A stretch of DNA of 64,000 nucleotides from a virus (taxonomy: Duplodnaviria; Caudoviricetes), in IMG/VR virus record IMGVR_UViG_2595698952_000001, positions 1 through 64,000 of that record. One strand, 5' to 3'. The translations under genes and the position numbers were made by a program. Numbering within the stretch: position 1 is the stretch's first letter; every line of letters starts with the position of its first letter. Shown in pieces: positions 44,142 through 60,791 of this stretch. The notes below the pieces were generated by a model. The model worked only from the letters and a program-made list of their open reading frames with translations, was not told the origin of the DNA and did no database searches.

Positions 44142-44161
44142 TCCTGCTAAAGGAAGTTAGA

Positions 44162-45058
44162 ATGAAACCTTTAAACAAAACGTCCGACCTCCTGGTTCTC
44201 GATTTCATCAATGAGAAGAACTCAGGTGCGAATCTCGAACTGACCAAAGTTATTCTGGGTACGCCTGTTGAAAACACCGGTGCGGACAAAGATGACCGTA
44301 ACACCCAGATGGATGTCAAGGCGCGTAAGAACTCCGGTTACATCGGCGATCAGGGCGTGACCTATAACCGTCTGGAAGGTGAGAAGCTGTTCCTGAACGT
44401 CACGGCTTACCTGGACGTGAAAGAACCGAAAACCACCACTGACCTGCTGAGCAAACTGAACGAGCAGTACGGTCTGAAAATCACCGAAGACGACATCGAC
44501 CCAACGGCTATCCCGGACGGCACTAACCCGCCAGTAACCAACCCGGAAGATCCAGACCCGGCCCCGGTTGATCACCTGGTGACCTTCAAAACCGATTGCT
44601 ACGCCTACCTCGGCGCTATCCCGGTGAAAATCGGTGCTAAGCCACAGGTCGGTGAGCGTCTGAGCCTGGTCATCACCCAAACTCAGCTGGATGGCCTGGT
44701 ATACCCAGACACCCCGATTGAGAACAAAGGTCAAGGCTACATCTACTCCTACGGTGTGGACTGTTCTGCCATTGCTGCGTTCCTGGATGTGCAGGCAACC
44801 GGCGTGATGGCGAACGACACGGCGTTTGCCGTCGAGCTGAACAAAGTGGTTCCAGAGCTGTGGGTTGCGGAAGATGCCTCTAAGGATTACAACCTGAAAG
44901 GCGCAAACGTAACCTACGTTGGCCTGACTGCGGACGACGGTACGGGCAAACCTGTTGAAGGCGCGAACACCGCTTACAACAAAGTGATGCTGCTGGAGCT
45001 GGACGACACCAAGTGCTCTAACTTCACCGGTACCATGTTCCTGCACTTCAACGCCTAA
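44162..45058 (+). CDS. Virion paralog-family protein, class I
   Basis: LDGLVYP linker; C-domain closest to 41636..42433 (AVELNK.VPELWVA). Confidence 0.75.
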   Translation: MKPLNKTSDLLVLDFINEKNSGANLELTKVILGTPVENTGADKDDRNTQMDVKARKNSGYIGDQGVTYNRLEGEKLFLNVTAYLDVKEPKTTTDLLSKLNEQYGLKITEDDIDPTAIPDGTNPPVTNPEDPDPAPVDHLVTFKTDCYAYLGAIPVKIGAKPQVGERLSLVITQTQLDGLVYPDTPIENKGQGYIYSYGVDCSAIAAFLDVQATGVMANDTAFAVELNKVVPELWVAEDASKDYNLKGANVTYVGLTADDGTGKPVEGANTAYNKVMLLELDDTKCSNFTGTMFLHFNA

Positions 45059-45064
45059 TGGCAC

Positions 45065-45107
45065 GCTAGGGGGAGGCTATCCTCCTCCTAGCACTGCTTT
45101 CTTTTTT
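45065..45107 (+). terminator. Intrinsic terminator
   Basis: GCTAGGGGGAGG-CTAT-CCTCCTCCTAGC (one mismatch) followed by a T-rich tail. Confidence 0.7.
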
Positions 45108-45126
45108 CTGTGCCGAGGAGGCTGCT

Positions 45127-45963
45127 ATGGCGATTTATAGTCAGTCTCAGCGACAGTATCTCTTTGATGCAATCAACGCGGAGAACCCTGGCGCGATTAT
45201 GCCCATGGGGTTGAACAACGCGATTATCGGGAAACCGAAAGTGATTCCAACAACAGAGACTGGAGCCAATACCGAGATTGTCATTCGTGGCCGTCAAGGG
45301 CGGGGCTACGCAGGCGGACAAACTTTCCGCTACAAGCGTTTGTCGCTGAACGACTTATTTAAGAACCTGGTTGCGACGGTGACTTCACCGCAGGCGTATG
45401 GCTGGCTGAACAACGATGCGAAGAAACTCGCGTTTGTCCAAAACGTCAACGCGCGCTATGGTCTTAATCTGGAAGCCATTGATATTCCAGATGTGTACGT
45501 ATACCTCAACAACAAGAACACGGTCAACGTGTTAGCAACCTGTGTCCAGTACACCGGTGGGATTACCTTTAACTCGGTTAGAGGGAAGAACTCGCTGGAA
45601 GAAGCAATTCTGGATGATGTGTTGAAGGTACTGAATCACCCTATTGACGTCGACGACCAAAAGCTCTGCGGAACGATGCTGGGTTATAGCGTGGACTTTA
45701 CAGACGAGCCGCAAATTATGCAGGCGTTTGTGAATGGGCGTATGGACGTGGGGGCGAACTTTACTTCGGGGGCCAGTGATAACCTGGTGACACTGATGGT
45801 CAGTCGTGGGTTACCGTCGTTTGATTTTACCGGTGCCACGATTAAGCGTGTGAAGACCACCGCGGAACCACGGGCCAACACAATGTACGATAACGTGCTG
45901 GTTATCACGAACGTTAACGATCCTCACGTCGGTGGCGATTGGCTGCTGCACTACAACGATTAG
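45127..45963 (+). CDS. Virion paralog-family protein, class I
   Basis: Same architecture; ends GDWLLHYN. Confidence 0.75.
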   Translation: MAIYSQSQRQYLFDAINAENPGAIMPMGLNNAIIGKPKVIPTTETGANTEIVIRGRQGRGYAGGQTFRYKRLSLNDLFKNLVATVTSPQAYGWLNNDAKKLAFVQNVNARYGLNLEAIDIPDVYVYLNNKNTVNVLATCVQYTGGITFNSVRGKNSLEEAILDDVLKVLNHPIDVDDQKLCGTMLGYSVDFTDEPQIMQAFVNGRMDVGANFTSGASDNLVTLMVSRGLPSFDFTGATIKRVKTTAEPRANTMYDNVLVITNVNDPHVGGDWLLHYND

Positions 45964-45974
45964 GAATAAAACGA

Positions 45975-46862
45975 ATGGCAATCTATCAACCTTCGAAGGA
46001 CGTCATTCTGGCCGCCATCAATGCACAGAACTCCATCGCGGTTAAAGCGACAGACATTGTGTACAGTGCGCCGAAAGACATTCGTGGTACTGATAAAGGT
46101 AACACGACCAAAAAGAACACCCAGGTTAAAGTCACCGCCGACGGCGTTGTGGGGTCAACCTGGTCGGGCAAAAAGAACGTGTTTTACGACCGTCTCCAGA
46201 TTCAGGACTTGGTGGTGCTGATTGGTGACACGCTCTACATCGGACCGTCAAACAACCATCTTCAGGAAGCTATCCCTGCCCTGAACCTGCGTTATGGTTT
46301 TGTGTTTGAAGCGGGTGATTTGCAAGAAGCAGAAATCCTGTGGAACGAAGACAAAACGGCGGGCACGGTAAAAGTGAAAGCAGTTGAGACTTCACTGGGC
46401 TGGATTGGTGAGTACAACTTTAAAGTGGCGAAAGGTGACGAATCCCTGCCGTCGAAAGTGTCAACCAACACCCTGTCCGGTCTGAAATACCCGAATGGTC
46501 AGATGGGTTCCGAGACGGTCGCAGCCACCATTGCGCAGGTTTACTCGTACCCGTTCAACTTCACCGTGTACCACGACCTGTTCAAATCATTCACACCGGG
46601 TGTGTTGACGGGCGATGCCCTGACCAACTTCGTCAACGCGATGAAGGTCATCACTGGCGGATCGTGGGTTACCACCAACAACGCCACCTGGGGTCTGTCT
46701 GGTGCAGAAGTTACGTTCGTGGGCGACAACGACGCAGTTACCATGCCAACCAACAGCAAGTACAGCTTCGTGCTGGCGGTGAAACTGCCTGCGTCGCTGA
46801 CGGCGATGGTCGGTACGATGTACCTGCAATTCAACAAACCAGAAGACCCGAACGAGGTGTAA
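45975..46862 (+). CDS. Virion paralog-family protein, class I
   Basis: LSGLKYP linker; ends GTMYLQFN. Confidence 0.75.
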   Translation: MAIYQPSKDVILAAINAQNSIAVKATDIVYSAPKDIRGTDKGNTTKKNTQVKVTADGVVGSTWSGKKNVFYDRLQIQDLVVLIGDTLYIGPSNNHLQEAIPALNLRYGFVFEAGDLQEAEILWNEDKTAGTVKVKAVETSLGWIGEYNFKVAKGDESLPSKVSTNTLSGLKYPNGQMGSETVAATIAQVYSYPFNFTVYHDLFKSFTPGVLTGDALTNFVNAMKVITGGSWVTTNNATWGLSGAEVTFVGDNDAVTMPTNSKYSFVLAVKLPASLTAMVGTMYLQFNKPEDPNEV

Positions 46863-46865
46863 TGT

Positions 46866-47711
46866 ATGGGACTCAACTACAGTAAGCCTTCTGACTTGCT
46901 GGTCTTCGATCTGTTAAACCGGGACAACCCCGGTTTACCGATTCCGGTGGATGCGAATAACGTCATCATCGAGAAGATTACGCAAGTGACGCCAGGCCCG
47001 GCCAATAACAACCGCAACACCCAGGCACGGTTACGTGGGGTACAGGGAATGGGGTTCCGCGATTCCCTGACCTTGTACTACGACCGTATCAGTTTGGCAC
47101 GGCTTATCCCTTGGTGGAGCTACGGTACAACTACACGTACCGCGTGCGGTATTACCAACTTCACAGCAGCGAACCTGCACGAACTCCTGCCATCCATTCT
47201 GGATACGTACGGTATTAACCTGCAACCCAAAGATGTGACCAATCAAAACTTTAGTGGTGTAGGCCAACCGAACTATAACTTCACCTACGCTTGTAATGCG
47301 TTGGCGACTTCGCCTGCGTATTTCAGCGGTTTCACCGGTTACCTGATGCGTGGTCTGCCGGTGCTGGATACGTCGATTACGATTGACACCTTGAACGTCA
47401 TGAAGCACCCGATTGGCATTGACACCAATCAGATGTGTGTGGACTTGATGACCTGGGGTATCGATTTCACGGCGTACAAGAACCTGCTGACGGTCACGTC
47501 GGGCGGTCTGCCAAACTGGGCAGGTCTACGTAACCTGTTGGACAGCCTGGGTGTGCCGAACTACGCTGCACCGATGAGTTCCAACACGGTGCAAGACGTC
47601 GCCACCACGGGGAACCAGTGGGCGAACAAAGACTACGACCGCGTGGTGATTCAAACCGGTATCGATGAGACCGGAGCGAAGGGTGTAGCCTACTATCACT
47701 ACAACAACTAA
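46866..47711 (+). CDS. Virion paralog-family protein, class I
   Basis: Same architecture; ends GVAYYHYN. Confidence 0.75.
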   Translation: MGLNYSKPSDLLVFDLLNRDNPGLPIPVDANNVIIEKITQVTPGPANNNRNTQARLRGVQGMGFRDSLTLYYDRISLARLIPWWSYGTTTRTACGITNFTAANLHELLPSILDTYGINLQPKDVTNQNFSGVGQPNYNFTYACNALATSPAYFSGFTGYLMRGLPVLDTSITIDTLNVMKHPIGIDTNQMCVDLMTWGIDFTAYKNLLTVTSGGLPNWAGLRNLLDSLGVPNYAAPMSSNTVQDVATTGNQWANKDYDRVVIQTGIDETGAKGVAYYHYNN

Positions 47712-47714: not shown

Positions 47715-47740
47715 AAGGGCCTGCGGGCCCTTTCTTTTTT
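47715..47740 (+). terminator. Intrinsic terminator separating class I genes from the triplicated cassettes
   Basis: AAGGGCC-TGCG-GGCCCTT followed by a T-run. Confidence 0.8.
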
Positions 47741-47765: not shown

Positions 47766-49184
47766 ATGCAATTCTATTCCAGTGCTGCGTTACAACTGAT
47801 ATACGACCAGGTGAACCGAGACAACCCGGATTTACCGGTAAAGCTTACCCAGGACGTCGCGGCACTCAAGAGTGGGCCGACGGCTAACTCTGCCAATGGG
47901 CGCAATACCCGTGCGGTATTTGTTGCCTATCCCGGTAAAGGGTACCGTGGTGAAATCACACTCTATTACGACCGTGTTAACTTAGGACAAATCTTTACCA
48001 CGACACTCCGCCCGCTTATCAGCCTGCCTACGACAGTGAAGACGTTAGCAGATGCGTTGCCGTATTTGAACGACTTGCTCGGGCTCAGTCTGACCGTTGA
48101 GGATTTACAATCCCCCACGATGGCCCTGGCTCCGGATACCACCGTTAAGAATACCCAGGCGGCGATTGTCTCCACATCACCAGCGTTTCAGGGTGGGGTG
48201 AATTTCTCGTACCAGGCAGAAGGGCTTGGCTATTACCCGAATTCAGGCCCAGGGCCAAAGACGCTCCGCGCGGGCAATACCTTGATGGGGTATTTCGGCA
48301 AGGTGGACGCGTCTGAACTGTATACGCACGCAGAGCTGTATAACCTGACACTGAAAGGTACACCGGCGACGCTGTATGCAGGAACCGAAGGGTGGTACAA
48401 GTTCTTTTATCAAGGCGGGATTATTTATCTACCGGTAACGCCACTCGCGTATAACGTTAACTGGTCTATCATCTATAACGCGGGGATAGCGTACGGTATC
48501 GAGGGTGTCGGCGCATACCCAACCGTCACACCGGTCAACCAGTCGAAGATTCTGACGAAGTCACTGCCTGAGGGCAAGTTCTATCTGCGTCCACGTTTAC
48601 CGACAGCCAGTGTGAAGGACCCGATGACCGCAACCACCGGCACACTGCCAATTGCAGAGTACGTCGGCAGTATCCTCGAGTTAATGTTGAAAGTGCGAGA
48701 CGGGACGTGGGAATCTAACACCGAAGGTCGGTGGAATGACTGGGCAGTGTTCCTGAACAGCATCGCCGGGACAACCGGTAGTTTTAAACTGGTGGTACCG
48801 CTGTCAAAGAACGGTACCAACGTCGTCAAAACCAATACCGCTACCGCTTGGTACTGGTGGCCGGTGTTAGAGTTGGTGGATACCAATACCACGTTATTGA
48901 AACTGGAAGACCTGACCGGAAAACTGGAAACCTCCTTTACCCCGATTGTGGCCAGCCGTGAACAGAAGTTCGCGTTAGCGCCTGCGGTGTTCAGTGGGCC
49001 GAAGACCACGTTGTTCCAGCCGGTTGTCACGACGCCAGAGAATAGCTTGGCTATTGCTCCACCGATTCCGCTGTTACCGAAGACTGTTGATTTCCGTCCG
49101 GTCGTTGCAACGGGCAGTCAGGTAGATGCACCAACCAAAATCAATCTTTCCTCCCTCAATGGCGAATTGAGCGGGTTTAATTAG
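47766..49184 (+). CDS. Virion paralog class II (anchor domain + GPG domain + repeat tail), cassette 1
   Basis: YDR anchor domain, SGPGPK.L..G...GYFG, WWPVLEL, ends NGELSGFN. Confidence 0.75.
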   Translation: MQFYSSAALQLIYDQVNRDNPDLPVKLTQDVAALKSGPTANSANGRNTRAVFVAYPGKGYRGEITLYYDRVNLGQIFTTTLRPLISLPTTVKTLADALPYLNDLLGLSLTVEDLQSPTMALAPDTTVKNTQAAIVSTSPAFQGGVNFSYQAEGLGYYPNSGPGPKTLRAGNTLMGYFGKVDASELYTHAELYNLTLKGTPATLYAGTEGWYKFFYQGGIIYLPVTPLAYNVNWSIIYNAGIAYGIEGVGAYPTVTPVNQSKILTKSLPEGKFYLRPRLPTASVKDPMTATTGTLPIAEYVGSILELMLKVRDGTWESNTEGRWNDWAVFLNSIAGTTGSFKLVVPLSKNGTNVVKTNTATAWYWWPVLELVDTNTTLLKLEDLTGKLETSFTPIVASREQKFALAPAVFSGPKTTLFQPVVTTPENSLAIAPPIPLLPKTVDFRPVVATGSQVDAPTKINLSSLNGELSGFN

Positions 49185-49196
49185 AGGTAAGACGCC

Positions 49197-50186
49197 ATGG
49201 CATTTATATTGCGCTGGACGAACCCAAACGCAATGAGCACGGTGATTAACATTTACCGTGACACCAAAGACATCCTCACCAGTGCCTTGCCTGCACCGAT
49301 TGCCACGTTAAGTAATGGCGAAACCGAATGGCGCGACACTACCGCACTGGGCGGGAAAACCTACTACTACCTGATGACCGTTACCGCTAACGGTAAAACC
49401 GTCGCTGGCCCTTCCACCCCGTATACCGTCGCGGTGAAACGCGGTATTGGTCCGAGTACCTTTATCCACGGGGACGACAAGCTGGGCTTTATGGGGGTGG
49501 TGCCGTACGAAGAACGTTTCGACGTTAACCAACTTCCTGCAACCTTCCTGTCCATGTTCCCAAACGCGTTCACCGATCGTCCTGTGTTGTTGAAGTTCAG
49601 CTACTACGGGAAGATTATTTACGTCCCGGAATTCTCTCCCTCTATTGGGTTTGCCAGTTGGGCAGCACTTTACACCAACGGGTTAATCTACGGACGTGAT
49701 GACAATGGCCCGGATGGGGGTTGGGGAACACTGACACCTACGAAGCAGGATGCCAAAGTTGTCCATAAAGGTGACATTTACCGGATGCGCGTACCACGGG
49801 GTATCGTGGGGCAGAACACACCAGAGGTATTAGCCTTTAATAACGATTTCCAGTTGAAAGACCATGACGCGGTTGACCTTGGTAACAACGAGTTCAACGA
49901 CTTGATGTACGCCATGGTACTGGACTTCCCAGTAAAGCAGCGTGCCATTAATGCCCACGTATACAGCTCAACGTATCTCGGTGCGGGTGGTGTAGTTAGC
50001 GCTAACCCGAATTTGAACGGTGGTACGGTGTGTATGGAGCACGACAGTGCAAGTGAGCGAGTGTTACATCGCGGACATTATATTACCGCAACGAACCAAT
50101 CGCAGCTCAGTCTAATGCAGCGTATCAACTACGTGACTCCGCAGCAGGCTGGCCGTTATCTTCCCATCTTTGAACTGGTAGAATAG
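49197..50186 (+). CDS. Virion paralog class IIIa (FN3-like + GPG domain), cassette 1
   Basis: LRWTNPN..INIYR..ETEWRD..YYY. Confidence 0.75.
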   Translation: MAFILRWTNPNAMSTVINIYRDTKDILTSALPAPIATLSNGETEWRDTTALGGKTYYYLMTVTANGKTVAGPSTPYTVAVKRGIGPSTFIHGDDKLGFMGVVPYEERFDVNQLPATFLSMFPNAFTDRPVLLKFSYYGKIIYVPEFSPSIGFASWAALYTNGLIYGRDDNGPDGGWGTLTPTKQDAKVVHKGDIYRMRVPRGIVGQNTPEVLAFNNDFQLKDHDAVDLGNNEFNDLMYAMVLDFPVKQRAINAHVYSSTYLGAGGVVSANPNLNGGTVCMEHDSASERVLHRGHYITATNQSQLSLMQRINYVTPQQAGRYLPIFELVE

Positions 50187-50194
50187 GAGCAGTT

Positions 50195-51124
50195 ATGACC
50201 ATTCGTTTAAGCTGGGTTTCACAGGCCAGCAAAAACCTGACTGCTATCGAAATCTATCGTAAAGTTGGGTATGCAGCCACACTCGACGTGAATGCTCCTG
50301 GGACGCCGTATAAGACACTTTCTCCAACAGCCACAGAGTTTATCGAGAATGTGTCTGACGTGACGGAGAAGACCATCTACAGCTACTGGGTAGCAGGTGT
50401 GAAAGATACTGAACGTTTGTTCGGCGCACGGATCGTGCAAGGGTTCTTTTTGGATACTGGGCCAGGCCCACAAACCATTCTCCGTGGAGATTGGTACTGT
50501 GGTTACTTTGGACCGGTTTCTGCTGCGGACTTCTTTACGACCGCTGAAATAAAATCCCTGCTGCCTACAACGCAGGCAGCGATGTTCAGCAACGAACCAG
50601 GAACATGGCACAAGTTTATCTACCTGGGTAGGATTGTGTTCATACCGGCTTCGCAACATACCCAAGCCATTTTTTCTAACGCATACACCCGTGGAATGGC
50701 TTACGGTACCGATGACAACGGTACTATCGTCCCCACAGGCCAAACGGCAACGAAACAAGATGCCCGTATCGCGAAGAATGGCCGCACGTACCGTATTCGT
50801 TTACCTCGAGCTGATGCATACGACACTAAACTCGATGTTACCAACGGTGAGTGGTTCTCGACCATGGGTCGAATGTTTAACAACGCCAACGATTACTCGA
50901 AGGTGGTGGATGCGAATGGGGTAGGGCGTGGAAAATTTGGTGGGTTGGCATTGCTGGGCAATACCGCCAACCAAACCGATCCTGGTGCACAATGTTTAAT
51001 GCCGATGTATAGCGCCGGGACCGTGTTCTTTGCTTACGGTTACCGACCAGATTCGTGGACCACCACCTCATCGCTGAGTACGAACATCGGTATGAGTTTT
51101 GTGTTTGAATTAATCCTCCCGTAA
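50195..51124 (+). CDS. Virion paralog class IIIb (FN3-like + GPG domain), cassette 1
   Basis: IRLSW..Q...AIEIYR and GPGP..ILRGDW. Confidence 0.75.
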   Translation: MTIRLSWVSQASKNLTAIEIYRKVGYAATLDVNAPGTPYKTLSPTATEFIENVSDVTEKTIYSYWVAGVKDTERLFGARIVQGFFLDTGPGPQTILRGDWYCGYFGPVSAADFFTTAEIKSLLPTTQAAMFSNEPGTWHKFIYLGRIVFIPASQHTQAIFSNAYTRGMAYGTDDNGTIVPTGQTATKQDARIAKNGRTYRIRLPRADAYDTKLDVTNGEWFSTMGRMFNNANDYSKVVDANGVGRGKFGGLALLGNTANQTDPGAQCLMPMYSAGTVFFAYGYRPDSWTTTSSLSTNIGMSFVFELILP

Positions 51125-51136
51125 TGGAGAACCACC

Positions 51137-52537
51137 ATGGGGTTTTACAGTGATACGTCGTTGGCACTGTTGTGTCAACAGATTCTCCGTGATAACCCCG
51201 GATTACCTTACCCGCTGACGAAAGACAATGTGCTTATCTTAAGCGGGCCTTTAACTTCCGGTTTAGGGACGAGTGGGCGTAACAGCCGCATTACCTTAAA
51301 CGGGAAGTTAGGGTCGGGTTTTTCTGGGCGTAAGGAGTTCTTTTACGATCGCCTGAAAATGGAATCCATTTATACCAGCCTGCTATCGACGCTGGTACTG
51401 ACGATGCCAAATGGCGTAGCGACCAATGCAGACTTGCTCCCCACTATCAACGATGCGTTGGGATTAGGGTTAGCGTCAACAGACTTAGCTGCCCCCAGTA
51501 CCACGTTAGGGTTAGGCCGTACACCAACCACTGCAACGCTGGCATTGGCCACTAACTGTCCGTGTTTTACTGGCACCCTCACCGTGCAGTGGCAACGCGG
51601 CAGTACCGCGATTTATCCCGATTCGGGCCCTGGCAGTAAAGTGATGTTGATGGGTGACTTGAACGAAGGTTACTTCGGGATGGTGACACAACAGGAACTG
51701 GCAAAAGGGGTGGATGTCTATGCTGCATTTGCTGAGGGGAAATCCTTAGGCACAGCAGGTGGGGTCGATACCGCAGATATGTTCTGGCTGAAGTTTGCGT
51801 TAGACGGCAAGATTTGTTATTTCCCGTCACGCAACATCGGTGCAAACATCACCTGGAATACCCTGGCTAATAACGGGGCAGCCCGCGGAGATGCCAAATA
51901 CCCGATAACCTTCGAAGCAGGTGATGGCAGTACCGTCTTTGCACAACTTCGCCTACCCAACATCAGCACCACCGAAGTTGTTAATCCGAGTCGTGGCGAT
52001 CCTACGTCCGACCCAGTGCGGTTGTTCAACAAAGTCCACAAACAGACATACGGCACCGGTGTCTGGGACGAACTCACCACCATTAACATGGCTGAGGTGT
52101 TCTGGTGGTTAAACCGATATGCGGCATCCAGTGGTAACTCGGCTGTTATCAGTCAGTTTAACATCGCCTCTGTTAACGCCAATGCCATTGTCAATACACA
52201 CAACTGGCGACCCATGCTGGTGTTGGTGGATGGGGAATTGGTACTGGTTCCTCTTCGGAATGTGCAGGGTGAACGCTATTCGGTGTTATCCGCGCCGGGA
52301 CTAACCTACGATCGTACTCCTGACCCGAAACAACTTACGCGTGTGCGGGATGTGAATGGTACGCTGGATAACCCGGTTAGGAAGCCTTGGTTGAACCCAG
52401 TGGGCAGTGCGCCATTAACGGCAGTGCATAACCTCGCCATTGTTCGCGGGTTAAAGCCTATCCATCCGCAAGTAAGTGTGACCATCAACACCAAGATTAA
52501 TCTGGCCACGGCCAACGGTGAATTAACCGGTTTCTAA
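51137..52537 (+). CDS. Virion paralog class II, cassette 2
   Basis: SGPLT.GLGTSGRN, KEFFYDRL, ends NGELTGF. Confidence 0.75.
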   Translation: MGFYSDTSLALLCQQILRDNPGLPYPLTKDNVLILSGPLTSGLGTSGRNSRITLNGKLGSGFSGRKEFFYDRLKMESIYTSLLSTLVLTMPNGVATNADLLPTINDALGLGLASTDLAAPSTTLGLGRTPTTATLALATNCPCFTGTLTVQWQRGSTAIYPDSGPGSKVMLMGDLNEGYFGMVTQQELAKGVDVYAAFAEGKSLGTAGGVDTADMFWLKFALDGKICYFPSRNIGANITWNTLANNGAARGDAKYPITFEAGDGSTVFAQLRLPNISTTEVVNPSRGDPTSDPVRLFNKVHKQTYGTGVWDELTTINMAEVFWWLNRYAASSGNSAVISQFNIASVNANAIVNTHNWRPMLVLVDGELVLVPLRNVQGERYSVLSAPGLTYDRTPDPKQLTRVRDVNGTLDNPVRKPWLNPVGSAPLTAVHNLAIVRGLKPIHPQVSVTINTKINLATANGELTGF

Positions 52538-52549
52538 AAGGGCAAGTAT

Positions 52550-53587
52550 ATGTCTTTAAAACTCTCGTGGAACAACCCCAACGTTGTTCCTACCCGTGTC
52601 CGGATTTATCGGAAAGACACGGATTTCGATTCCAGCACGTTGCCCGCACCGTTAGTGGAACTGACGAACGGTGAAACCACCTGGATTGACCCGACCGCCG
52701 TTGATGGTAACAGTTACTATTACGTTCTCGGGTCAAAGACCGACACGGATGAGGTCTTCACTGCCAGCCAAAAGATTCTGGTGGCAGATAACCGGGGCGT
52801 CGGGTCGAGCACCATTCTGCACGGTGATGCATCGCTGGGTTACATGGACTCGATTCTGTCTGTGGATTTTGTTAACTCGTCAACCATTCTGGCAGCTGCC
52901 CTTAATGCGTCCGGTTTACCGGTTGCGCTGGTACAGCCGACATGGCACAAGTTCATTCGCAACAACAAAATCATCTATGTTCCTGACCAGCAATTCGGGA
53001 CGGCCTCTTTCCCGAATCTGTACCGTGCCGGGTTTGTCTACGGTACGGACTCTGTGGGGCCAGAAGGTTACCCAACAGCTGGTCTGGCAGCACCCGTAAA
53101 CCAGTTACGGATTATCGAGTTCAAAGGCCAGAAGTACAAAATCCGCCTGATGCGGGGCTGGAGTGACGGGGTGATTACTGACGTTAACAACTGGGCCAGC
53201 ACCGGTCAAAGCAACATGGATTTGGTGCCGGAGGCGCAGAACAACGAGTACAGTGACCTTATCTACTCACTGGCAAAATTCGTACCGTTAAAACAACGTA
53301 CGCCGAACTGGCTTAATCTGTCGGTTGACCCGTGGCTGGGCGCACCTTTGTCATCTTACGACAGTGCCACCATCAACAGCTGGCGTGCCACGTTCCGTGT
53401 TCTGTGTCAAGAACGGCGGGCAAACGGGAACATTTTTACGCGCAGTATGCGTGAGTGTACGCTGAACCAAAACCAGGGTAGCCCGAACTCGAAAGCGAAC
53501 TTGACGTACGTGTTTTTGGGCGATGTTAACCAGGCCACTATTTGGATTCCGGTACTGGAACTCGTTGAACAAACCGCCACACTGTAA
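52550..53587 (+). CDS. Virion paralog class IIIa, cassette 2
   Basis: LSWNNPN, PTWHKF and WIPVLEL. Confidence 0.75.
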   Translation: MSLKLSWNNPNVVPTRVRIYRKDTDFDSSTLPAPLVELTNGETTWIDPTAVDGNSYYYVLGSKTDTDEVFTASQKILVADNRGVGSSTILHGDASLGYMDSILSVDFVNSSTILAAALNASGLPVALVQPTWHKFIRNNKIIYVPDQQFGTASFPNLYRAGFVYGTDSVGPEGYPTAGLAAPVNQLRIIEFKGQKYKIRLMRGWSDGVITDVNNWASTGQSNMDLVPEAQNNEYSDLIYSLAKFVPLKQRTPNWLNLSVDPWLGAPLSSYDSATINSWRATFRVLCQERRANGNIFTRSMRECTLNQNQGSPNSKANLTYVFLGDVNQATIWIPVLELVEQTATL

Positions 53588-53598
53588 GGGAGGCTGGC

Positions 53599-54483
53599 AT
53601 GGGTATTAAACTCAAGTGGGACGATCAGTCGGCCCAGAATCTGGACGGGATTGAAATCTACCGTTCAGCCACAAAGATTGACAGCAACAATCCCGGTGCC
53701 CCACTGGCCACGATTGCCGGTAGCGCAACAGCGTACGAAGACAACAGTGTTCTGAACAAGTCACTGTATTACTATCGTATCCTGGCGAAGAAAGGCACGG
53801 ACAAAGCCTGGTCAGAAAATATCCTGGCCGGGTATTTCGCAGAAACGGGGCCGGGTAACCCAACGCCATTACGTGGCGATTGGAATGCTGGGCTGATGGA
53901 CACTGTGCTGCCGCAGGATCTTATCACCAATGCGGCACTACGGGCGAAGGTGCCATCGTTGGCAGCACTCAGTGGCGCTGCGGAACCTGGTGCTTGGTAT
54001 AAGTTCTGTTATAAAGGGACCGTGTTCTTCTGCCCCAGCGCATCCATCGTTACCGCGAGTTGGTCACAGTTATATTCGGCTGGTTTGGTCTACGGGACAG
54101 ACGATGTGGGTGTGTCACCTTCCGGGCCAACAGGGACTGTCAAACAACGGACAGTGGTGAACATCAACGGGCTGAACTATATTCTGCGGTTACCACGCAT
54201 GTCGACCTTGCCGTTAAACCAGTACGTGGTTAATCAGGCTGACACGCTAGGCAGTGAGTGGCGCGACACCGTTGCGCGTTTAGTTGCAGACGGGGTAGAC
54301 ACTTCACCGGGAAGCCGGACTCGCCTGTTTGATTTGGGTTCCTTCGCAAATGCGTTGGGGCCACACCTCAATACCAACGTTAACGTGGCAGGGGTGACCT
54401 CTACAAAACCTGAGACATTGGTTGCTTACAACAGCGGTGCTTCGGTTGCGCAAACTTTGGTGTTAGAACTCATCATGCCTTAA
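53599..54483 (+). CDS. Virion paralog class IIIb, cassette 2
   Basis: MGIKLKWDDQ and LRGDW. Confidence 0.75.
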   Translation: MGIKLKWDDQSAQNLDGIEIYRSATKIDSNNPGAPLATIAGSATAYEDNSVLNKSLYYYRILAKKGTDKAWSENILAGYFAETGPGNPTPLRGDWNAGLMDTVLPQDLITNAALRAKVPSLAALSGAAEPGAWYKFCYKGTVFFCPSASIVTASWSQLYSAGLVYGTDDVGVSPSGPTGTVKQRTVVNINGLNYILRLPRMSTLPLNQYVVNQADTLGSEWRDTVARLVADGVDTSPGSRTRLFDLGSFANALGPHLNTNVNVAGVTSTKPETLVAYNSGASVAQTLVLELIMP

Positions 54484-54493
54484 TGGAGGGGTT

Positions 54494-56017
54494 ATGGGGC
54501 TTTATAACAAGACGTCCCTCGAACTGTTGTGCCAACAAATCGAACGGGACAATCCCGCAACCGCGGGTCAACTTGACGCGGCGTCGATACTGGTGCTCAG
54601 CGGGCCCTTAACCACTGGTCTTGGAACAAGCGGGCGCAATGCCCGCATTATCCTGAACGGTCGTTTAGGAAATGGTTTTATCGGAAAGAAGGAATTCTTT
54701 TACGACCGTTTAAACATTGGACAAATGTTCAAAGGCATCACAGTGGTGTTTCAGGCAGAGGGGTCGTCTAAGACGTACGCCGATTTACTGCCCGCGCTGA
54801 ATGCGCAATATGGATTGGGGTTAGCGGCGGCAGACATTGCCAACGCCACCACCAAACTCCCTTATGGCTACGCGCCAACACAGCTCACGTTAACCATCGC
54901 TGCAACGTCCCTGGCGTATACGGGTACGTTGTCAGTGACCTGGTCACGGAAACCGGTGGGTGTCTTCCCGGAATCTGGCCCAGGTTCGAAGGTCATGCTT
55001 ATCGGGGACATGAATGAGGGCTATTTCGGGGTTGTGACCGAAGCCGAGTTGTTCAGCCCAGTGGAAGTCCTCAGTCAACTGAACGAAGGGCGTACTGAGC
55101 CTTACGGGACGTTACAGGCCATGCCAACCAGTCGGTTTTGGTATAAGTTCGCACGCGATGGGAAAATCTTCTATCTCGCGAACTACAACCAAATCAGTAT
55201 TCGCTGGCAGGAGTTGTACCGCTTGGGGGGTATCTACGAAACGGATACGCCAGACAATAAACAGTTCCCGCCCGATGGGGTGCTGTCTCGTCAAAAGAGC
55301 GTGTTGAAGAAGAAGGAAAATGGGCGCGATTGGTATCTCTCTCCAACCGCACCGAAACTCGCGGGGAGTGACCCGTGGGAGTACGCCGGAGTAAACCAAA
55401 CCCCTGACCCAGGTGGGGACGTTGCGAGACTGTTTGCAAAGGTTGTACCATCGGGTGGTTTCGCCACCGGGGAATGGGATGGTCAAATCATCAATGCTGA
55501 CGGGTTCTGGATGTCCACGACATCACAAACCTCGCCTGCAAATGCATACGGCAGTAGCATGATCGGTGCCAACCAGGGTCAGTACAATAAAACCAACTTT
55601 GTTGGGGGCTGGCGACCGTTCCTGGAACTGGTTGATGTAACCAAAATCGCATTAGGCTTGAACCCGTTCAGTGGGGTACCGGAAGGGGTGTTAAGAAAAC
55701 CTCTGGTCTCCATCAGTCCAGAAGTGACGGATGTGTTGTTAACCCTGAGTGATGTGAAGTGGGAACAAAACGGGGCATTGCGCATTCCGTTAGTGTCGCA
55801 GACATTGCAACCGTTACAAATGACCACGTATTTTGGCTGGACGCGGTTACTTCGTCCGGCTCTCGTGACGGTAAAGCATGAGCCGATACGTAACGTCAAC
55901 CAGGTAGGGTGGACTCGCCCTCTCCGGCGACCTGTCGCGGCACTGACCGTGGACTACAAGGAATCAACAGCCTTTAACTTAGCCAACGCCAACGGTGAGC
56001 TAAACGGCTTTAAATAA
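54494..56017 (+). CDS. Virion paralog class II, cassette 3
   Basis: SGPLT.GLGTSGRN, WRPFLEL, ends NGELNGFK. Confidence 0.75.
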   Translation: MGLYNKTSLELLCQQIERDNPATAGQLDAASILVLSGPLTTGLGTSGRNARIILNGRLGNGFIGKKEFFYDRLNIGQMFKGITVVFQAEGSSKTYADLLPALNAQYGLGLAAADIANATTKLPYGYAPTQLTLTIAATSLAYTGTLSVTWSRKPVGVFPESGPGSKVMLIGDMNEGYFGVVTEAELFSPVEVLSQLNEGRTEPYGTLQAMPTSRFWYKFARDGKIFYLANYNQISIRWQELYRLGGIYETDTPDNKQFPPDGVLSRQKSVLKKKENGRDWYLSPTAPKLAGSDPWEYAGVNQTPDPGGDVARLFAKVVPSGGFATGEWDGQIINADGFWMSTTSQTSPANAYGSSMIGANQGQYNKTNFVGGWRPFLELVDVTKIALGLNPFSGVPEGVLRKPLVSISPEVTDVLLTLSDVKWEQNGALRIPLVSQTLQPLQMTTYFGWTRLLRPALVTVKHEPIRNVNQVGWTRPLRRPVAALTVDYKESTAFNLANANGELNGFK

Positions 56018-56028
56018 CAGGTGGAAAC

Positions 56029-57012
56029 ATGGCACTTAAACTTCTCTGGAAGAATCCCAATACCGTTGCAACCACGATTGACATTTACCGCGGTGACACG
56101 TCGAACGTTAGCTTAACCACGCCACTGAAAACCGTGGATGGTGCGGAGACGTCGTGGATTGACACCACGGCATTGTTTGGGAAAACGTACTATTACGTCT
56201 GGGCAGTAAACTCGGCAGTTGACCGGGTCGTGTCTCGTCCGCAGAAAATCGAAGTCTCTGACCGTCGTGGGCCAGGGTCGAACTTGTTGCGTCACGGTGA
56301 TGAGAACTACGGTTACTACGGTGCGGTGTCAGCGGCGGACTTCGTTAACAGCACCACGCTGTATAACGCAGCGAAAAACACCTCCGGTTTACCGACTACC
56401 GTTATCTACCCGACGTGGCACAAATTTGCCCGTAAAGGGAAAGTCGTCTTTGTGCCCAACCAGTGGTTCGGGGATGTTACCTGGCAGAGTCTGTATGACG
56501 CGGGTCTGGTCTACGGGACAGATGATGTTGGCGGAGCCAATCCGGCAGGCACCGTTAACCAGTTGACCACTTTTGATTTCAACGGTGAAACGTTCCTGAT
56601 TCGTTTGATGAAAGGAATGCCAGAGGGTCTCGTGTGGGACGGGTCAAACTTTAACCCGAATACCTTCGCCCCGATGAAAGACGTCTACGCCGAATACGAG
56701 GACTTCCTCTACCCGTTGTGTAAAGACGCGCCGTTACGCCAAAGAATGGTCTCGGTTGATACACTCGACGGCAGGGCCTGGATACCAGGGGCAGCCTACA
56801 ACAACCGTGTCAACTATGGGGTGATTTGTCAGGAAGCCCTGGCCAACGTGTTGGTACGTGGTACGCCGAACTACAACAACGACCCGTCAACACGCAGTTC
56901 CATGGAATCCACGATTGCCCGCAGTCGTACCGCCGGGACACCGTGGGTACCGGTTGTCGAATACGTGGGTCGTGTAGGTGAGACCTTTACCCTGCCGAAG
57001 ACGGCCAAGTAA
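56029..57012 (+). CDS. Virion paralog class IIIa, cassette 3
   Basis: LLWKNPN, PTWHKF and WVPVVEY. Confidence 0.75.
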   Translation: MALKLLWKNPNTVATTIDIYRGDTSNVSLTTPLKTVDGAETSWIDTTALFGKTYYYVWAVNSAVDRVVSRPQKIEVSDRRGPGSNLLRHGDENYGYYGAVSAADFVNSTTLYNAAKNTSGLPTTVIYPTWHKFARKGKVVFVPNQWFGDVTWQSLYDAGLVYGTDDVGGANPAGTVNQLTTFDFNGETFLIRLMKGMPEGLVWDGSNFNPNTFAPMKDVYAEYEDFLYPLCKDAPLRQRMVSVDTLDGRAWIPGAAYNNRVNYGVICQEALANVLVRGTPNYNNDPSTRSSMESTIARSRTAGTPWVPVVEYVGRVGETFTLPKTAK

Positions 57013-57022
57013 GGAGTAGAAC

Positions 57023-57919
57023 GTGGGTATTAAAATTAACTGGGACGACCAGACTGACCAGGCACTGGATGCAGTAGAAGTGTATCGGAGCACCTCACCT
57101 ATTGATGAGAATGCACCTGGAACCCCTATTGCGACTTTACCGGGCACGGCACGAGAGTACGAAGACACCGGCGTGAAGAACGGTAACACGTACTACTACC
57201 GTGTGGCAGTGGTGAAAGGCGCTAATCGCTCTTTCGGTACTCAACAGACCGCAGGGTACTACTCTAACCTCGGGCCCGGTCCGAAGAAGATTCTGCGGGG
57301 CGATTGGATAGCTGGGTATTTCGGTGAGATGCTGAATGCAGACTGGGTGTTGCCGTTGGATGTGGCGAACAAAATTACCGCAGCCCTGAAATCCACCGTT
57401 GGGATTAACTACATCACCTCGTCTGACCGTTGGCACAAGTTTATCTATAAAGGTAAAGTGTTGTTCGTGCCATCTACCCGACTGATGTACTCGACGTATG
57501 CAAACGCGTACAACGCCGGGTTCTTGTTCGGTGAAGACGGCGTTGGCCAACTGCCGACGGGGCCTGCGGGGAACGTTAATCAGAAAACGGTTATCGAGAT
57601 TGGTGGGTATCAGTTCCTGGTACGCCCTATCCGCATGTCGGACAAACCAACTTCGCAGTACCTGACCGCACAAGCGGACTTTGTGGAAAGCGAATGGAAG
57701 AAGACGTTTGCCCGTTTGCGTATCGATGCGAACGCACAAACCGACCCAACCATCTTTGCCCGGTTCAGCGACTACACCACCATCGACTGGTGCGGCGGCC
57801 CACACCAGGCAAGCGCAACGACGTGTGCAACTGCGGTTAACGGCAACCCGGAGAATCTCGGTACCACGGCGAACACCAGTAACATCAACTGGTGTATTGC
57901 ATTGGAATTGATTCCGTAA
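57023..57919 (+). CDS. Virion paralog class IIIb, cassette 3
   Basis: GTG start; MGIKINWDDQ and LRGDW. Confidence 0.75.
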   Translation: MGIKINWDDQTDQALDAVEVYRSTSPIDENAPGTPIATLPGTAREYEDTGVKNGNTYYYRVAVVKGANRSFGTQQTAGYYSNLGPGPKKILRGDWIAGYFGEMLNADWVLPLDVANKITAALKSTVGINYITSSDRWHKFIYKGKVLFVPSTRLMYSTYANAYNAGFLFGEDGVGQLPTGPAGNVNQKTVIEIGGYQFLVRPIRMSDKPTSQYLTAQADFVESEWKKTFARLRIDANAQTDPTIFARFSDYTTIDWCGGPHQASATTCATAVNGNPENLGTTANTSNINWCIALELIP

Positions 57920-57923: not shown

Positions 57924-57962
57924 TACCCTCTCGCCTTCGGGTGGGAGGGTATTTCTTTTTTA
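57924..57962 (+). terminator. Intrinsic terminator
   Basis: TACCCTCTCGCC-TTCG-GGTGGGAGGGTA followed by a T-run. Confidence 0.8.
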
Positions 57963-60184: not shown

Positions 60185-60709
60185 ATGGCAAAAACAGCAC
60201 GAGCGCAATTTATTGCGATGTTCAACGCGGATAACACTGGTCTGGCGCAAGCACTGGTCGAAGCAGATGTTACCTTTGGCGCAGTGGCCGAATATGACCC
60301 TGCCGATGAGGCCGATACCCGCAACTCCAAAGTGACGCTGACTGCCGTTGCAGAAAGCACGCACTTTACCGGGGAAAAGGAATTCCACTTCACCCGTCTG
60401 GCTGCAAACATCGTTGGTGCGAAAGCAGTTACCGATGACCAGGCCGACTGGGACACCGATGCCGAAGTCCTGGCATTCCTGAATGCTGACGTTATCTCCG
60501 CTGGTAAAGCGGATGATGCGTTTGCACTCAGCGAGCTGGACATTGTTCGTACCGATGGTGCGGATGATGCGAAAGTGATTACCGTCACTATCAAAGCCGG
60601 TCACCTGAAGTTCCTGCCAGGCGATGTGGCAGTCTACACCATTACGCAAGAGATCACTAAAACTGACCTCTCTACCACAAATGGTGAGCTCAACGGTTTC
60701 ACAGCTTAA
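60185..60709 (+). CDS. Virion paralog-family protein (anchor domain only)
   Basis: VTFG, RNSKVTLTA..FTG.KEFHFTRL, ends DLSTTNGELNGF. Confidence 0.75.
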   Translation: MAKTARAQFIAMFNADNTGLAQALVEADVTFGAVAEYDPADEADTRNSKVTLTAVAESTHFTGEKEFHFTRLAANIVGAKAVTDDQADWDTDAEVLAFLNADVISAGKADDAFALSELDIVRTDGADDAKVITVTIKAGHLKFLPGDVAVYTITQEITKTDLSTTNGELNGFTA

Positions 60710-60732
60710 TAAGCTACTAAAACCGCTATTCA

Positions 60733-60765
60733 CGGGAGACCATTAGGTCTCCCGCTTTTTATTTT
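60733..60765 (+). terminator. Intrinsic terminator
   Basis: CGGGAGACC-ATTA-GGTCTCCCG followed by a T-run. Confidence 0.85.
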
Positions 60766-60791
60766 GTTTACTTTAACGGAGTGAAGTAAGT

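What the first reader, a model, noticed from the sequence alone, without database searches (positions are those of the whole stretch)
47766..57919. Triplicated three-gene adhesin cassette, possibly assembled by donor-strand complementation of FN3-like domains
Seen: nine genes in strict II-IIIa-IIIb order, three times, with no internal terminator. All six class III proteins begin at what looks like the Trp-bearing B strand of an FN3/Ig-like domain (MAFILRW, MTIRLSW, MSLKLSW, MGIKLKW, MALKLLW, MGIKINW), followed by IYR, T.[WY].D and YYY, so the usual first strand appears absent. Each class II protein ends in 3-4 degenerate ~25-30 aa repeats, many of which begin like an FN3 A strand (VPLRNVQG, TRVRDVNG, TAVHNLAIV, LKLEDLTG, TLSDVKWE, PIRNVNQV). 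Established: FN3 domains start with a P-x-NL-x-V-type A strand, and chaperone-usher pili polymerise by donating a missing strand. Inference: class II is a scaffold whose tail repeats complete the class III folds, giving a branched multi-head receptor-binding module in three variants. The paralog expansion is known in SPN3US-like phages, but I do not recall this assembly logic being described.
Basis: partly seen in the sequence, partly recalled or inferred. Interest (0 to 1): 0.85.

Follow-up and report, generated by a model that had tools for sequence, protein, structure and literature searches.

The report
Triplicated jumbo-phage virion module, strand-less FN3
Nine genes of an Erwinia jumbo phage are three copies of a conserved three-gene set of virion proteins, two of which carry a fibronectin-type domain that really lacks its first strand; whether the third protein's floppy tail supplies that strand could not be tested.

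Summary
The nine genes are real and ordered II-IIIa-IIIb three times. Two strong terminator-like hairpins bracket them. They match SPN3US gp145-153 ("paralog family B"), which proteomics of tailless mutants places in the head, not on tail fibres.

Class III is an FN3 domain plus a roughly 220-aa core with a probable C-type-lectin-like fold. The FN3 domain lacks strand A by Pfam, PDB profile, AlphaFold2 and fold search. In 131 of 132 FN3+core representatives it starts at residue 1-3.

Class II is the N-half of DUF7941, the same core, and a 101-127-aa tail that AlphaFold2 leaves disordered. Tail repeats are significant in II-1 and II-3 but not II-2. They do not resemble FN3 A strands more than shuffled tails do.

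In all 17 cassettes of 10 relatives examined, one tailed protein precedes two or three tail-less class III genes. Trees show that cassettes duplicated as units. Metagenomic fusions join cores with 13-15-aa linkers; the all-core ones carry neither FN3 nor a repeat tail.

This fits a hetero-complex in which the tail and the open FN3 domains are connectors. The donor-strand idea therefore stays open (about 0.2-0.3), and the tail-fibre adhesin reading is disfavoured.

The parts
47715..47732 (+). terminator-like hairpin closing the upstream class I genes
   Evidence: 7-pair stem with 5 G-C pairs followed by a T run. It lies between the class I stop (47711) and the II-1 start.
47766..49184 (+). II-1: DUF7941 N-half + lectin-like core + repeat tail
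   Evidence: Pfam DUF7941 E 6.9e-29 over residues 1-150; phrog_3589 E 4.5e-165; core HMM E 5e-36.
48879..49181 (+). II-1 tail, 101 aa after the core's last strand, ending in an NGELxGF-type motif
   Evidence: Boundary. Internal repeats: maximum 40 against shuffles 19.5+-3.7, reached by 0 of 500.
49197..50186 (+). IIIa-1: A-less FN3 (about residues 1-78) + core
   Evidence: fn3 HMM 1e-27 and core HMM 2e-60; phrog_1062 E 8.2e-53.
50195..51124 (+). IIIb-1: A-less FN3 (about residues 1-85) + core
   Evidence: fn3 HMM 4e-20 and core HMM 1e-54; phrog_1062 E 1.9e-59.
51137..52537 (+). II-2: DUF7941 N-half + core + tail
   Evidence: Pfam DUF7941 E 1.1e-21; phrog_3589 E 2e-163.
52229..52534 (+). II-2 tail, 102 aa, ending in an NGELxGF-type motif
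   Evidence: Boundary. Internal repeats are not significant: 0.776 of 500 shuffles reach the maximum.
52550..53587 (+). IIIa-2: A-less FN3 + core
   Evidence: fn3 HMM 5e-30 and core HMM 1e-61.
53599..54483 (+). IIIb-2: A-less FN3 + core
   Evidence: fn3 HMM 5e-30 and core HMM 1e-52.
54494..56017 (+). II-3: DUF7941 N-half + core + tail (folded here)
   Evidence: AlphaFold2 model m133d2f85611c: residues 1-390 mostly pLDDT 80-95 by block (the first and last blocks about 70), tail about 40. N-domain residues 5-152 match phiKZ gp127 (9xqd_0) at Z 8.8. Core residues 154-380 match C-type-lectin-like folds at Z 4-6.2.
55634..56014 (+). II-3 tail, 127 aa, disordered in the monomer model
   Evidence: pLDDT below 50 for residues 396-493. 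Repeats: maximum 33 against 18.9+-3.5, reached by 3 of 500 shuffles.
56029..57012 (+). IIIa-3: A-less FN3 + core
   Evidence: fn3 HMM 2e-25 and core HMM 2e-63. tblastn finds relatives in 109 phage records.
57023..57919 (+). IIIb-3 (GTG start): A-less FN3 (residues 1-81) + core (folded here)
   Evidence: AlphaFold2 model mff20677483e6, pLDDT 95.6, pTM 0.90. FN3 match at Z about 9 over residues 1-81. Pfam fn3 aligns from profile position 16.
57924..57951 (+). terminator-like hairpin closing the nine-gene block
   Evidence: 12-pair stem with 7 G-C pairs and a T-rich tail, 5 nt after the IIIb-3 stop.
41579..47711 (+). seven class I genes (DUF7941 family, about 277-298 aa with the likely starts), same paralog family, upstream
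   Evidence: n7941 HMM hits in all seven. They are collinear with Asesino gp155-161 and SPN3US gp138-144.
60185..61298 (+). two short DUF7941-N-like proteins (60185-60709, 60792-61298) ending in the same C-terminal motif as class II
   Evidence: ORFs and motif scan. The n7941 HMM hits the first (1e-4) and the Asesino counterparts of both.

Best explanation
The block holds three diverged copies of a conserved jumbo-phage virion module, equivalent to SPN3US paralog family B gp145-153.

Each copy encodes one 'stalked' protein and two 'stalk-less' proteins:
- Class II (stalked) has the N-half of DUF7941, a core of about 220 aa that is probably C-type-lectin-like, and a 101-127-aa tail. The tail is disordered on its own, is mostly made of degenerate repeats, and ends in an NGELxGF-type motif.
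- Classes IIIa and IIIb (stalk-less) have an FN3 domain that starts at Met1 with strand B, so it lacks strand A, followed by the same core.

I propose that the products of one cassette form a hetero-oligomer on the virion surface. Going by SPN3US proteomics it would sit on the head or neck. The class II tail and the open-edged FN3 domains would be the non-covalent connectors, and the fast-diverging cores would be the binding heads. Three cassettes would give three variants.

Shown: the genes, the domains, the missing strand, the disordered tail, the conserved order of one stalked then 2-3 stalk-less genes, and duplication as units.

Inferred: the complex itself, strand donation by the tail, the ligand, and the exact place in the virion.
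For: Genes and family:
- establish the genes and families.
- Gene order is the same in Asesino gp162-170 and SPN3US gp145-153.

FN3 without strand A:
- Searches support it.
- Of the 150 best representatives of the profile search, 132 are FN3+core. In 131 of these the FN3 starts at residue 1-3.

Tail and core:
- The tail is disordered alone.
- The core matches C-type-lectin-like chains over 94-114 residues at Z 4.5-6.2.

Conserved order:
- I chose 10 of the 109 records with hits. In them, 17 of 17 cassettes have one tailed core protein followed by tail-less FN3+core genes: two in 12 cassettes and three in 5.
- This holds even where the tailed protein has no DUF7941 domain.

Duplication as units:
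- IIIa and IIIb form two old clades. The main cassette groups recur in the IIIa, IIIb and class II trees.

Fusions (two kinds):
- All-core proteins: P0051 (3 cores), P0168 (2 cores, followed by a 229-aa Gly-rich C-terminal extension) and P0040 (4 cores) join cores by 13-aa linkers and have neither an FN3 nor a repeat tail.
- P0056 keeps the A-less FN3 at its N-terminus and joins 2 cores by a 15-aa linker.

Divergence and expression:
- Cassettes 2 and 3 are the most diverged genes of the neighbourhood against Asesino: 52-75% identity, compared with 82-95% for class I.
- Terminator-like hairpins bracket the nine genes as one block.

Head location:
- PMC5694885 and PMC5105663 (passages read) and PMC10052503 (section 3.2 read whole).
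Against: - No binding test of any kind was run.
- The tails do not resemble FN3 A strands more than shuffled tails do.
- Repeat counts (about 3-6) do not match partner counts (2-3), and II-2 has no significant repeats.
- AlphaFold2 folds IIIb-3 with pLDDT 95 at its N-terminus without any partner, so the domain may be stable as it is.
- CR5 pairs a type-3 class II with type-2 IIIa and IIIb, which argues against strict cognate pairing.
- The only solved relative of the DUF7941 domain, phiKZ gp127, is modelled in the baseplate periphery (PMC13250141 section on the outer periphery read). In Noxifer and PhiEaH1 the cassette lies beside tail-fibre genes. The head location is therefore not secure for this phage.
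- The lectin-like assignment rests on middling Z scores from a model of 507 residues.
- The per-protein SPN3US data for gp145-153 are in supplementary tables that I could not see.
Confidence: 0.45

Rival explanations
1. Each tail repeat of class II supplies the missing strand A to a class III FN3 domain (donor-strand complementation). This builds a branched, multi-headed receptor-binding module on virion fibres, in three variants.
For: - Strand A is missing, and strictly so across the family.
- The tail is disordered alone.
- Tailed and strand-less genes are always adjacent.
- The all-core fusions have neither an FN3 nor a repeat tail.
Against: - The tails show no A-strand likeness.
- The number of repeats does not fit the number of partners, and II-2 lacks significant repeats.
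- SPN3US family B is found in tailless heads (PMC5694885 and PMC5105663, passages read; PMC10052503, section 3.2), so a tail-fibre receptor-binding role is unlikely.
- Docking was not tested.
Confidence: 0.2
2. The class II tail is a capsid anchor. Its extended repeats pair by beta-augmentation with major capsid protein subunits of neighbouring capsomers, as the arms of phiKZ gp93 and gp162 do. Class III proteins attach on their own, for example by pairing their open strand-B edge with a capsid protein strand.
For: - SPN3US places the family in the head (papers as above).
- phiKZ gp93 and gp162 arms form beta-strand contacts with the capsid protein, and gp162 has two like halves (PMC11297242, section on fiber-like proteins read).
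- The same C-terminal motif ends two short DUF7941 proteins that have no repeats, which suggests a shared docking site other than class III.
- Repeat number is unrelated to the number of class III genes.
Against: - This does not explain why tail-less class III genes always follow a tailed one.
- It does not explain why the all-core fusions lack both a repeat tail and an FN3.
- The tails are not conserved between genera, whereas the capsid protein is.
- No test was run.
Confidence: 0.25
3. The proteins are scaffold or platform parts of the baseplate periphery, as phiKZ gp127 is. Their detection in SPN3US heads would then not carry over to this phage.
For: - The class II N-domain matches phiKZ gp127 by Pfam (gp127 E 7.8e-29 to DUF7941) and by fold (Z 8.8 over 133 residues).
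- The matched chain is confirmed as gp127.
- gp127 sits in the baseplate outer periphery (PMC13250141, section read).
- Tail-fibre and sheath-like genes lie beside the cassette in Noxifer and PhiEaH1.
Against: - SPN3US is far closer (30-50% identity, same gene order). Two tailless mutants there retain the family, while fibre proteins drop more than 10-fold (PMC10052503, section 3.2).
- gp127 was placed by docking a predicted model into a 4.4-4.7 A map.
- Only the N-domain is shared with gp127.
- phiKZ gp83, the relative of the core, is annotated as a head protein.
Confidence: 0.12
4. The tail is a homotrimerisation stalk. Three class II chains would form a beta-spiral or beta-helix shaft from the repeats, which is why a monomer prediction is disordered. 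Class III proteins would be independent paralogs with no physical link to class II.
For: - The repeats of about 25 aa have conserved Gly and Pro positions and low monomer confidence. This resembles what is known of trimeric fibre shafts (from my own knowledge, not tested).
Against: - The conserved adjacency and co-duplication with class III are left unexplained.
- The tails are short and poorly conserved.
- No homo-oligomer prediction was run.
Confidence: 0.08

Closest known systems
SPN3US paralog family B (gp83, gp138-154, gp161, gp237), especially gp145-153
   Same: Same gene block: seven class I genes, then three times II-IIIa-IIIb. Same PHROGs and Pfam family. Identity is 30-50%.
   Different: The three cassettes are not one-to-one orthologs. 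Only cassette 1 is shared. SPN3US cassettes 2 and 3 and the window's cassettes 2 and 3 arose separately. The passages and sections I read give the family no domain analysis or function.
Donor-strand complementation in chaperone-usher pili
   Same: An Ig-like fold encoded without one edge strand, plus a neighbouring gene product with an unstructured peptide that could fill it.
   Different: Here the missing strand is the N-terminal strand A, not the C-terminal strand G. No chaperone or usher is present. The would-be donor is a repeat tail on a different protein class, not an N-terminal extension of the next subunit. Binding has not been shown.
Type V pili (FimA/Mfa1) strand exchange (from my own knowledge, no call)
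   Same: A groove left by an absent N-terminal strand is filled by C-terminal strands of another subunit. This is the same geometry the hypothesis needs.
   Different: In type V pili the N-terminal strand is removed by a protease after export. Here it is never encoded. There is no polymerising filament and no evidence of exchange.
phiKZ gp127 (DUF7941; PDB 9xqd chain 0)
   Same: Homologous to the class II N-domain and to class I proteins.
   Different: gp127 has no lectin-like core, tail or FN3 partner. It is modelled in the baseplate periphery, whereas the SPN3US relatives are head proteins.
phiKZ gp93 and gp162 (paralog family A) capsid-binding arms
   Same: Paralogous jumbo-phage head proteins whose extended, partly repeated arms bind by beta-strand pairing (PMC11297242, section read).
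   Different: Unrelated sequences. Their arms bind the capsid protein on the inner surface. Their globular parts are cleaved or disordered.
Intimin/invasin-type adhesins and T4 Hoc (Ig/FN3-like domains, with a C-type-lectin-like tip in intimin and invasin)
   Same: An FN3/Ig-like module followed by a lectin-like domain. Invasin and InvE are among the fold matches of the core (Z 2.8-4.9).
   Different: There is no sequence relation. The matches are weak. The module here is split over three proteins, and its FN3 is incomplete.

Membership tests
SPN3US paralog family B / DUF7941 (PF25613) / phrog_3589 and phrog_1062 | Significant match to the family profiles | tested here: met
   Class II matches DUF7941 at E 1e-21 to 7e-29, above the cut-off. 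phrog_3589 E is down to 8e-190 and phrog_1062 is 8e-53 to 2e-66 for all six class III proteins.
SPN3US paralog family B / DUF7941 (PF25613) / phrog_3589 and phrog_1062 | Collinear gene block: class I genes, then II-IIIa-IIIb cassettes | tested here: met
   SPN3US gp138-153 and Asesino gp155-170 have the same order.
SPN3US paralog family B / DUF7941 (PF25613) / phrog_3589 and phrog_1062 | Virion (head) protein by mass spectrometry | not testable with these tools
   Known only for SPN3US (papers read as stated). The Asesino record labels class I and II 'virion structural protein' and class III 'putative'.
Fibronectin type III domain (PF00041 fold) | Beta-sandwich with the Trp of strand B, the Tyr-Arg of strand C and the Tyr run of strand F | tested here: met
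   W7, Y21/R22 and Y57/Y59 are nearly invariant in 134 sequences. Fold match Z about 9, rmsd about 2 A, 71-78 residues.
Fibronectin type III domain (PF00041 fold) | Seven strands including the N-terminal strand A | tested here: not met
   The protein starts at profile position 16. Single-domain FN3 targets align from about residue 11-20. Complete homologous FN3 domains carry about 12-14 more residues before the position of Met1.
Fibronectin type III domain (PF00041 fold) | Pfam gathering score | tested here: not met
   The best score is 13.5 bits against a cut-off of 25, and only for IIIb-3.
Donor-strand complementation systems | Ig-like fold encoded with one strand missing | tested here: met
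   Strand A is absent, as shown in the FN3 rows above. In 131 of 132 FN3+core representatives the FN3 starts at residue 1-3.
Donor-strand complementation systems | A donor peptide that occupies the empty strand position | not tested
By sequence the tails are not A-strand-like.
Donor-strand complementation systems | Dedicated chaperone and usher | not tested
   None is evident among the annotated neighbours, but I made no profile search for them.
C-type-lectin-like fold (core domain) | Fold match covering most of a lectin-like domain | tested here: inconclusive
   Lcl C-domain Z 6.2 (114 of 131 residues), CD94 Z 5.4, snake-venom lectins Z 4.6-5.3, InvE Z 4.9. The Z values are middling and come from the 507-residue class II model. 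No Foldseek hit reached E <= 1e-3 and there is no Pfam match.
Phage tail fibre / receptor-binding protein | Located on the tail or baseplate | not testable with these tools
   Published SPN3US data place the family in tailless heads. phiKZ gp127 points the other way (PMC13250141).

The most novel reading that the evidence does not exclude
Jumbo phages of the phiKZ-like group build multivalent lectin-like arrays on their virions from split subunits. A disordered repeat tail on one paralog completes, in trans, the FN3 domains of the two or three paralogs encoded after it, whose first strand is never encoded. This would be donor-strand complementation of an N-terminal strand, without chaperone or usher. 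Whole cassettes are duplicated to make variants.
Probability: 0.2. Interest if true: 0.8.

Novelty: new variant of a known kind. Interest (0 to 1): 0.55.

Why it matters
Paralog family B is the largest paralog family reported in a single phage genome (20-21 members in SPN3US). Its function is unknown, and none of its members appears in the phiKZ capsid structure; the only family relative in a solved structure is gp127, in the phiKZ baseplate atlas.

This analysis gives the family a domain grammar:
- the DUF7941 N-half;
- a core that is probably lectin-like;
- an FN3 domain that always lacks strand A;
- a disordered repeat tail.

It also gives a conserved rule: one tailed gene, then two or three tail-less genes. 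That turns an unannotated block into a concrete assembly hypothesis that can be tested cheaply.

If the tail-FN3 link holds, it would be a new form of strand complementation in viruses. It would also explain how many low-copy paralogs are mounted on a T=27 head. If it fails, the strictly conserved strand-less FN3 domain still needs an explanation.

Tried and rejected
- Complex prediction of the II-3 tail with IIIa-3 and IIIb-3 was asked for once.
- phiKZ gp26 and gp27 as relatives were rejected: different PHROGs and hhalign probability 0.1.
- A PDB sequence search with the class II profile gave no hit at E <= 1.
- Foldseek against the PDB gave nothing at E <= 1e-3 for either model.
- The wide VIA search of the class III model was filled by FN3 rows, so its core was barely tested there.
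- A search for longer fused relatives of IIIb-3 found only cellular FN3 arrays: 9 hits, none with the core. This is weak evidence that FN3+core is never internal.
- The Atlas search on the core gave only unnamed viral clusters. DUF6273 at 0.82 is a lead only.
- Context of the three-core fusion P0051: no locus in viral contigs or metagenome contigs. tblastn against isolated phages found only single cores.
- Read-through or frameshift fusion of class II to IIIa was rejected. In-frame stops and at most 10 open codons lie upstream, and the II-3 to IIIa-3 junction is out of frame.
- The A-strand-likeness test on the tails was negative.
- Literature: a search for 'donor strand' + bacteriophage + 'fibronectin type III' gave one unrelated review. 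A search for SPN3US with gp145-148 gave nothing on these proteins. A search for an SPN3US atomic capsid model gave none.

Full report
**What is there**

The window comes from a 243,050-bp virus record. It is close to Erwinia phage Stratton: II-3 is 96% identical to its protein. It is also related to Asesino, with 77.7% nucleotide identity over half of the block.

Nine + strand genes lie at the stated coordinates, separated by 8-12 nt. Each is preceded by a Shine-Dalgarno-like motif. Strong terminator-like hairpins lie at 47715-47732 and 57924-57951, just outside the block. Inside there are only weak intragenic hairpins. The nine genes therefore look like one transcription unit, set apart from the seven class I genes upstream.

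**Domains**

- Class II residues 1-150 match the first half of Pfam DUF7941 (E 1e-21 to 7e-29). Class I proteins are DUF7941-family proteins of about 277-298 aa.
- Classes II and III share a core of about 220 aa that ends in a conserved 'LELV'-type strand.
- Class III has an N-terminal domain of about 80 aa.
- Class II alone carries 101-127 further residues after the core.

**The FN3 domain without strand A**

Several independent lines agree.

- Pfam fn3 aligns IIIb-3 residues 3-70 to profile positions 16-78 of 84, below the cut-off.
- A profile of the six class III proteins hits FN3 domains in the PDB. In 4u49, query 5-73 aligns with chain 37-103.
- I folded IIIb-3 (1 of the 6 class III proteins) with a 134-sequence alignment. 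It reached pLDDT 95.6 and pTM 0.90, with strands at 3-6, 17-23, 37-40, 45-48, 55-65, 68-71 and 75-79.
- Residues 1-81 match FN3 structures at Z about 9 and rmsd about 2 A over 71-78 residues. Where a row is a single FN3 domain, the target alignment starts at about residue 11-20.
- The best Foldseek hit is an engineered FN3 whose A strand is swapped out, at E 2.2e-3, just outside the tool's 0.001 line.
- Complete FN3 domains homologous to this one (211 domains in 10 long proteins) carry a Pro-rich A-strand segment of about 12-14 residues just before the position of class III Met1.
- No upstream start is possible: at most 10 codons are open.

The trait belongs to the whole family. Of the 150 best representatives of a profile search over 1.84 billion proteins, 132 are FN3+core. 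In 131 of these the FN3 starts at residue 1-3. The exception has five extra residues and an internal Met. Of the other 18, 8 hold cores only and 10 are cellular FN3 arrays.

**Class II**

I folded II-3 (1 of the 3 class II proteins) with 53 sequences. Residues 1-390 are folded, mostly at pLDDT 80-95 by block (the first and last blocks are about 70). Residues 396-493 are below 50.

- The N-domain (residues 5-152) matches PDB 9xqd chain 0 at Z 8.8 over 133 residues. That chain is phiKZ gp127, which is itself a DUF7941 protein.
- The core (residues 154-380) matches C-type-lectin-like chains at Z 4.5-6.2: the Lcl C-domain, CD94, snake-venom lectins and InvE, plus FGE-like PvdO. It covers most of each target. 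I take this as a probable fold, not a secure one.

**Tails**

Internal repeats are significant in II-1 (0 of 500 shuffles reach the maximum) and in II-3 (3 of 500). They are not significant in II-2 (0.776 of shuffles). They are also seen in SPN3US gp148, SPN3US gp151 and Noxifer gp136.

The first unit after the core resembles the conserved C-terminal NGELxGF-type motif. That motif also ends two short DUF7941-like proteins at 60185-61298.

Against the A-strand profile the tails score like their shuffles: 0.373, 0.446 and 0.639 of 1000 shuffles reach the observed maximum.

**Relatives**

tblastn finds class III relatives in 109 phage records, all jumbo phages of the phiKZ-like group. I mapped domains in 10 of them, chosen to span genera. 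The counts below are cassettes per phage, with the number of tail-less genes per cassette in brackets.

| Phage | Cassettes (tail-less genes each) |
|---|---|
| Asesino | 3 (two) |
| SPN3US | 3 (two) |
| EarlPhillipIV | 2 (two) |
| CR5 | 1 (two) |
| PhiEaH1 | 2 (two) |
| RSL2 | 1 (two) |
| Noxifer | 1 (three) |
| PhiPA3 | 1 (three) |
| SNUABM_37 | 1 (three) |
| RisingSun | 2 (three) |

In all 17 cassettes one tailed core protein comes first, followed by two (12 cassettes) or three (5 cassettes) tail-less FN3+core genes. RisingSun also has one lone class III-like gene ahead of its first tailed gene.

In five of the genera the tailed protein has no DUF7941 domain. The constant pairing is therefore 'tail' with 'strand-less FN3'. 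The tails themselves are not conserved between genera.

**History**

I built a tree of 36 class III proteins from 9 genomes, leaving out RisingSun and SNUABM_37. It splits into an a-type and a b-type clade, with support 98/96 and 93/87 for the main sets. The deepest fork is weak, and RSL2 sits crosswise on long branches.

Within both clades, and in the class II tree (12 rows from 5 genomes), two groups recur:
- window cassette 1 groups with Asesino cassette 1 and all three SPN3US cassettes;
- window cassettes 2 and 3 group with those of Asesino, EarlPhillipIV and CR5.

Cassettes were thus copied as whole units, and the two 'triplications' are not the same events. CR5 combines a type-3 class II with type-2 IIIa and IIIb.

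**Fusions**

Among the representatives there are two kinds of fused protein.
- All-core proteins have neither an FN3 nor a repeat tail and join their cores by 13-aa linkers. P0051 has three cores, P0168 has two cores followed by a 229-aa Gly-rich C-terminal extension, and P0040 has four.
- P0056 keeps the A-less FN3 at its N-terminus and joins two cores by a 15-aa linker.

P0051 starts with the same short N-terminal peptide as the DUF7941-less tailed proteins. Where cores are joined covalently without any FN3, there is also no repeat tail. That is what one expects if the two together are the non-covalent joint. It is indirect evidence from a few metagenomic proteins whose context I could not fetch.

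**Place in the virion**

SPN3US has the same block, gp138-154. Its authors call it paralog family B and report it as head proteins, because it is present in tailless mutant particles (PMC5105663 and PMC5694885, passages read). In the later study, 53 head proteins were defined by their ratios in 255(am107) heads, while fibre proteins fell more than 10-fold. A table there counts 21 family B proteins among 55 head proteins, and gp237 was moved to the tail (PMC10052503, section 3.2 read whole; other passages). The per-protein values are in supplements I could not see.

Against this:
- phiKZ gp127 is modelled in the baseplate outer periphery, from a predicted model docked into a 4.4-4.7 A map (PMC13250141, sections read).
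- In Noxifer and PhiEaH1 the cassette follows tail-fibre genes.
- phiKZ gp83, the only phiKZ relative of the core, has a Kelch propeller, is annotated as a head protein, and appears in neither cryo-EM paper.

I weight the close relative more, but the point is open.

**Reading**

The evidence best fits a hetero-oligomer of one class II with its IIIa and IIIb. It would be mounted on the virion surface with variable lectin-like heads. Cassettes 2 and 3 are the most diverged genes of the neighbourhood against Asesino: 52-75% identity, compared with 82-95% for class I and 95% for the endolysin.

That the tail supplies strand A is attractive and unrefuted, but untested. It is weakened by the sequence test and by the repeat counts. 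A capsid-anchor role of the tail, as for the arms of phiKZ gp93 and gp162 (PMC11297242, section read), is an equally live rival, and the two could coexist.

The searches found nothing in print on this assembly logic.

Noticed in passing
window 60185-60709 and 60792-61298 (+): Two proteins of about 170 aa resemble the DUF7941 N-half. They end in the same NGELxGF-type C-terminal motif as the three class II proteins. CR5_144 (722 aa) and small CR5 and EarlPhillipIV proteins end alike. The motif may be a shared docking peptide.
   Followed up: partly
window 59535-60050 (-): A 171-aa ORF has an N-terminal signal peptide and a lipobox-like LSGC. It lies beside the endolysin gene (58009-58608) and is 88% identical to Asesino gp174. 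It is possibly a lipoprotein of the lysis or exclusion kind.
   Followed up: no
window 39665-41524 (+): A 619-aa ORF is 78% identical to Asesino gp154, which is annotated as an EPS depolymerase. It lies directly upstream of the seven class I genes.
   Followed up: no
window 51137-57919 compared with L001 (Asesino): Cassettes 2 and 3 are the most diverged genes of the neighbourhood: 52-75% aa identity, compared with 82-95% for class I, 95% for the endolysin and 97.5% for a radical SAM protein.
   Followed up: partly
L013 (CR5) 7462-10935: The single CR5 cassette is a chimera by the trees. Its class II groups with type 3, and its IIIa and IIIb group with type 2.
   Followed up: partly
L006 (phiKZ) 4348-5862 (-), gp83: The only phiKZ relative of the shared core is gp83. 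A core-like N-terminal part is followed by a Kelch beta-propeller (PDB Kelch hits down to E 1.6e-19). It is annotated as a head protein and is absent from both phiKZ cryo-EM models.
   Followed up: partly
L012 (Noxifer), L015, L016, L017, L019: first gene of each cassette: Tailed core proteins that lack DUF7941 share a short N-terminal peptide of the type M-L-E-x-L-L..G.K. The same peptide opens the fused multi-core proteins P0051 and P0168.
   Followed up: no
own genome 104056-104526 (+), outside the window: This 156-aa ORF holds the best match in the genome to the canonical FN3 A-strand profile (score 18.6). It may be a complete FN3 domain.
   Followed up: no
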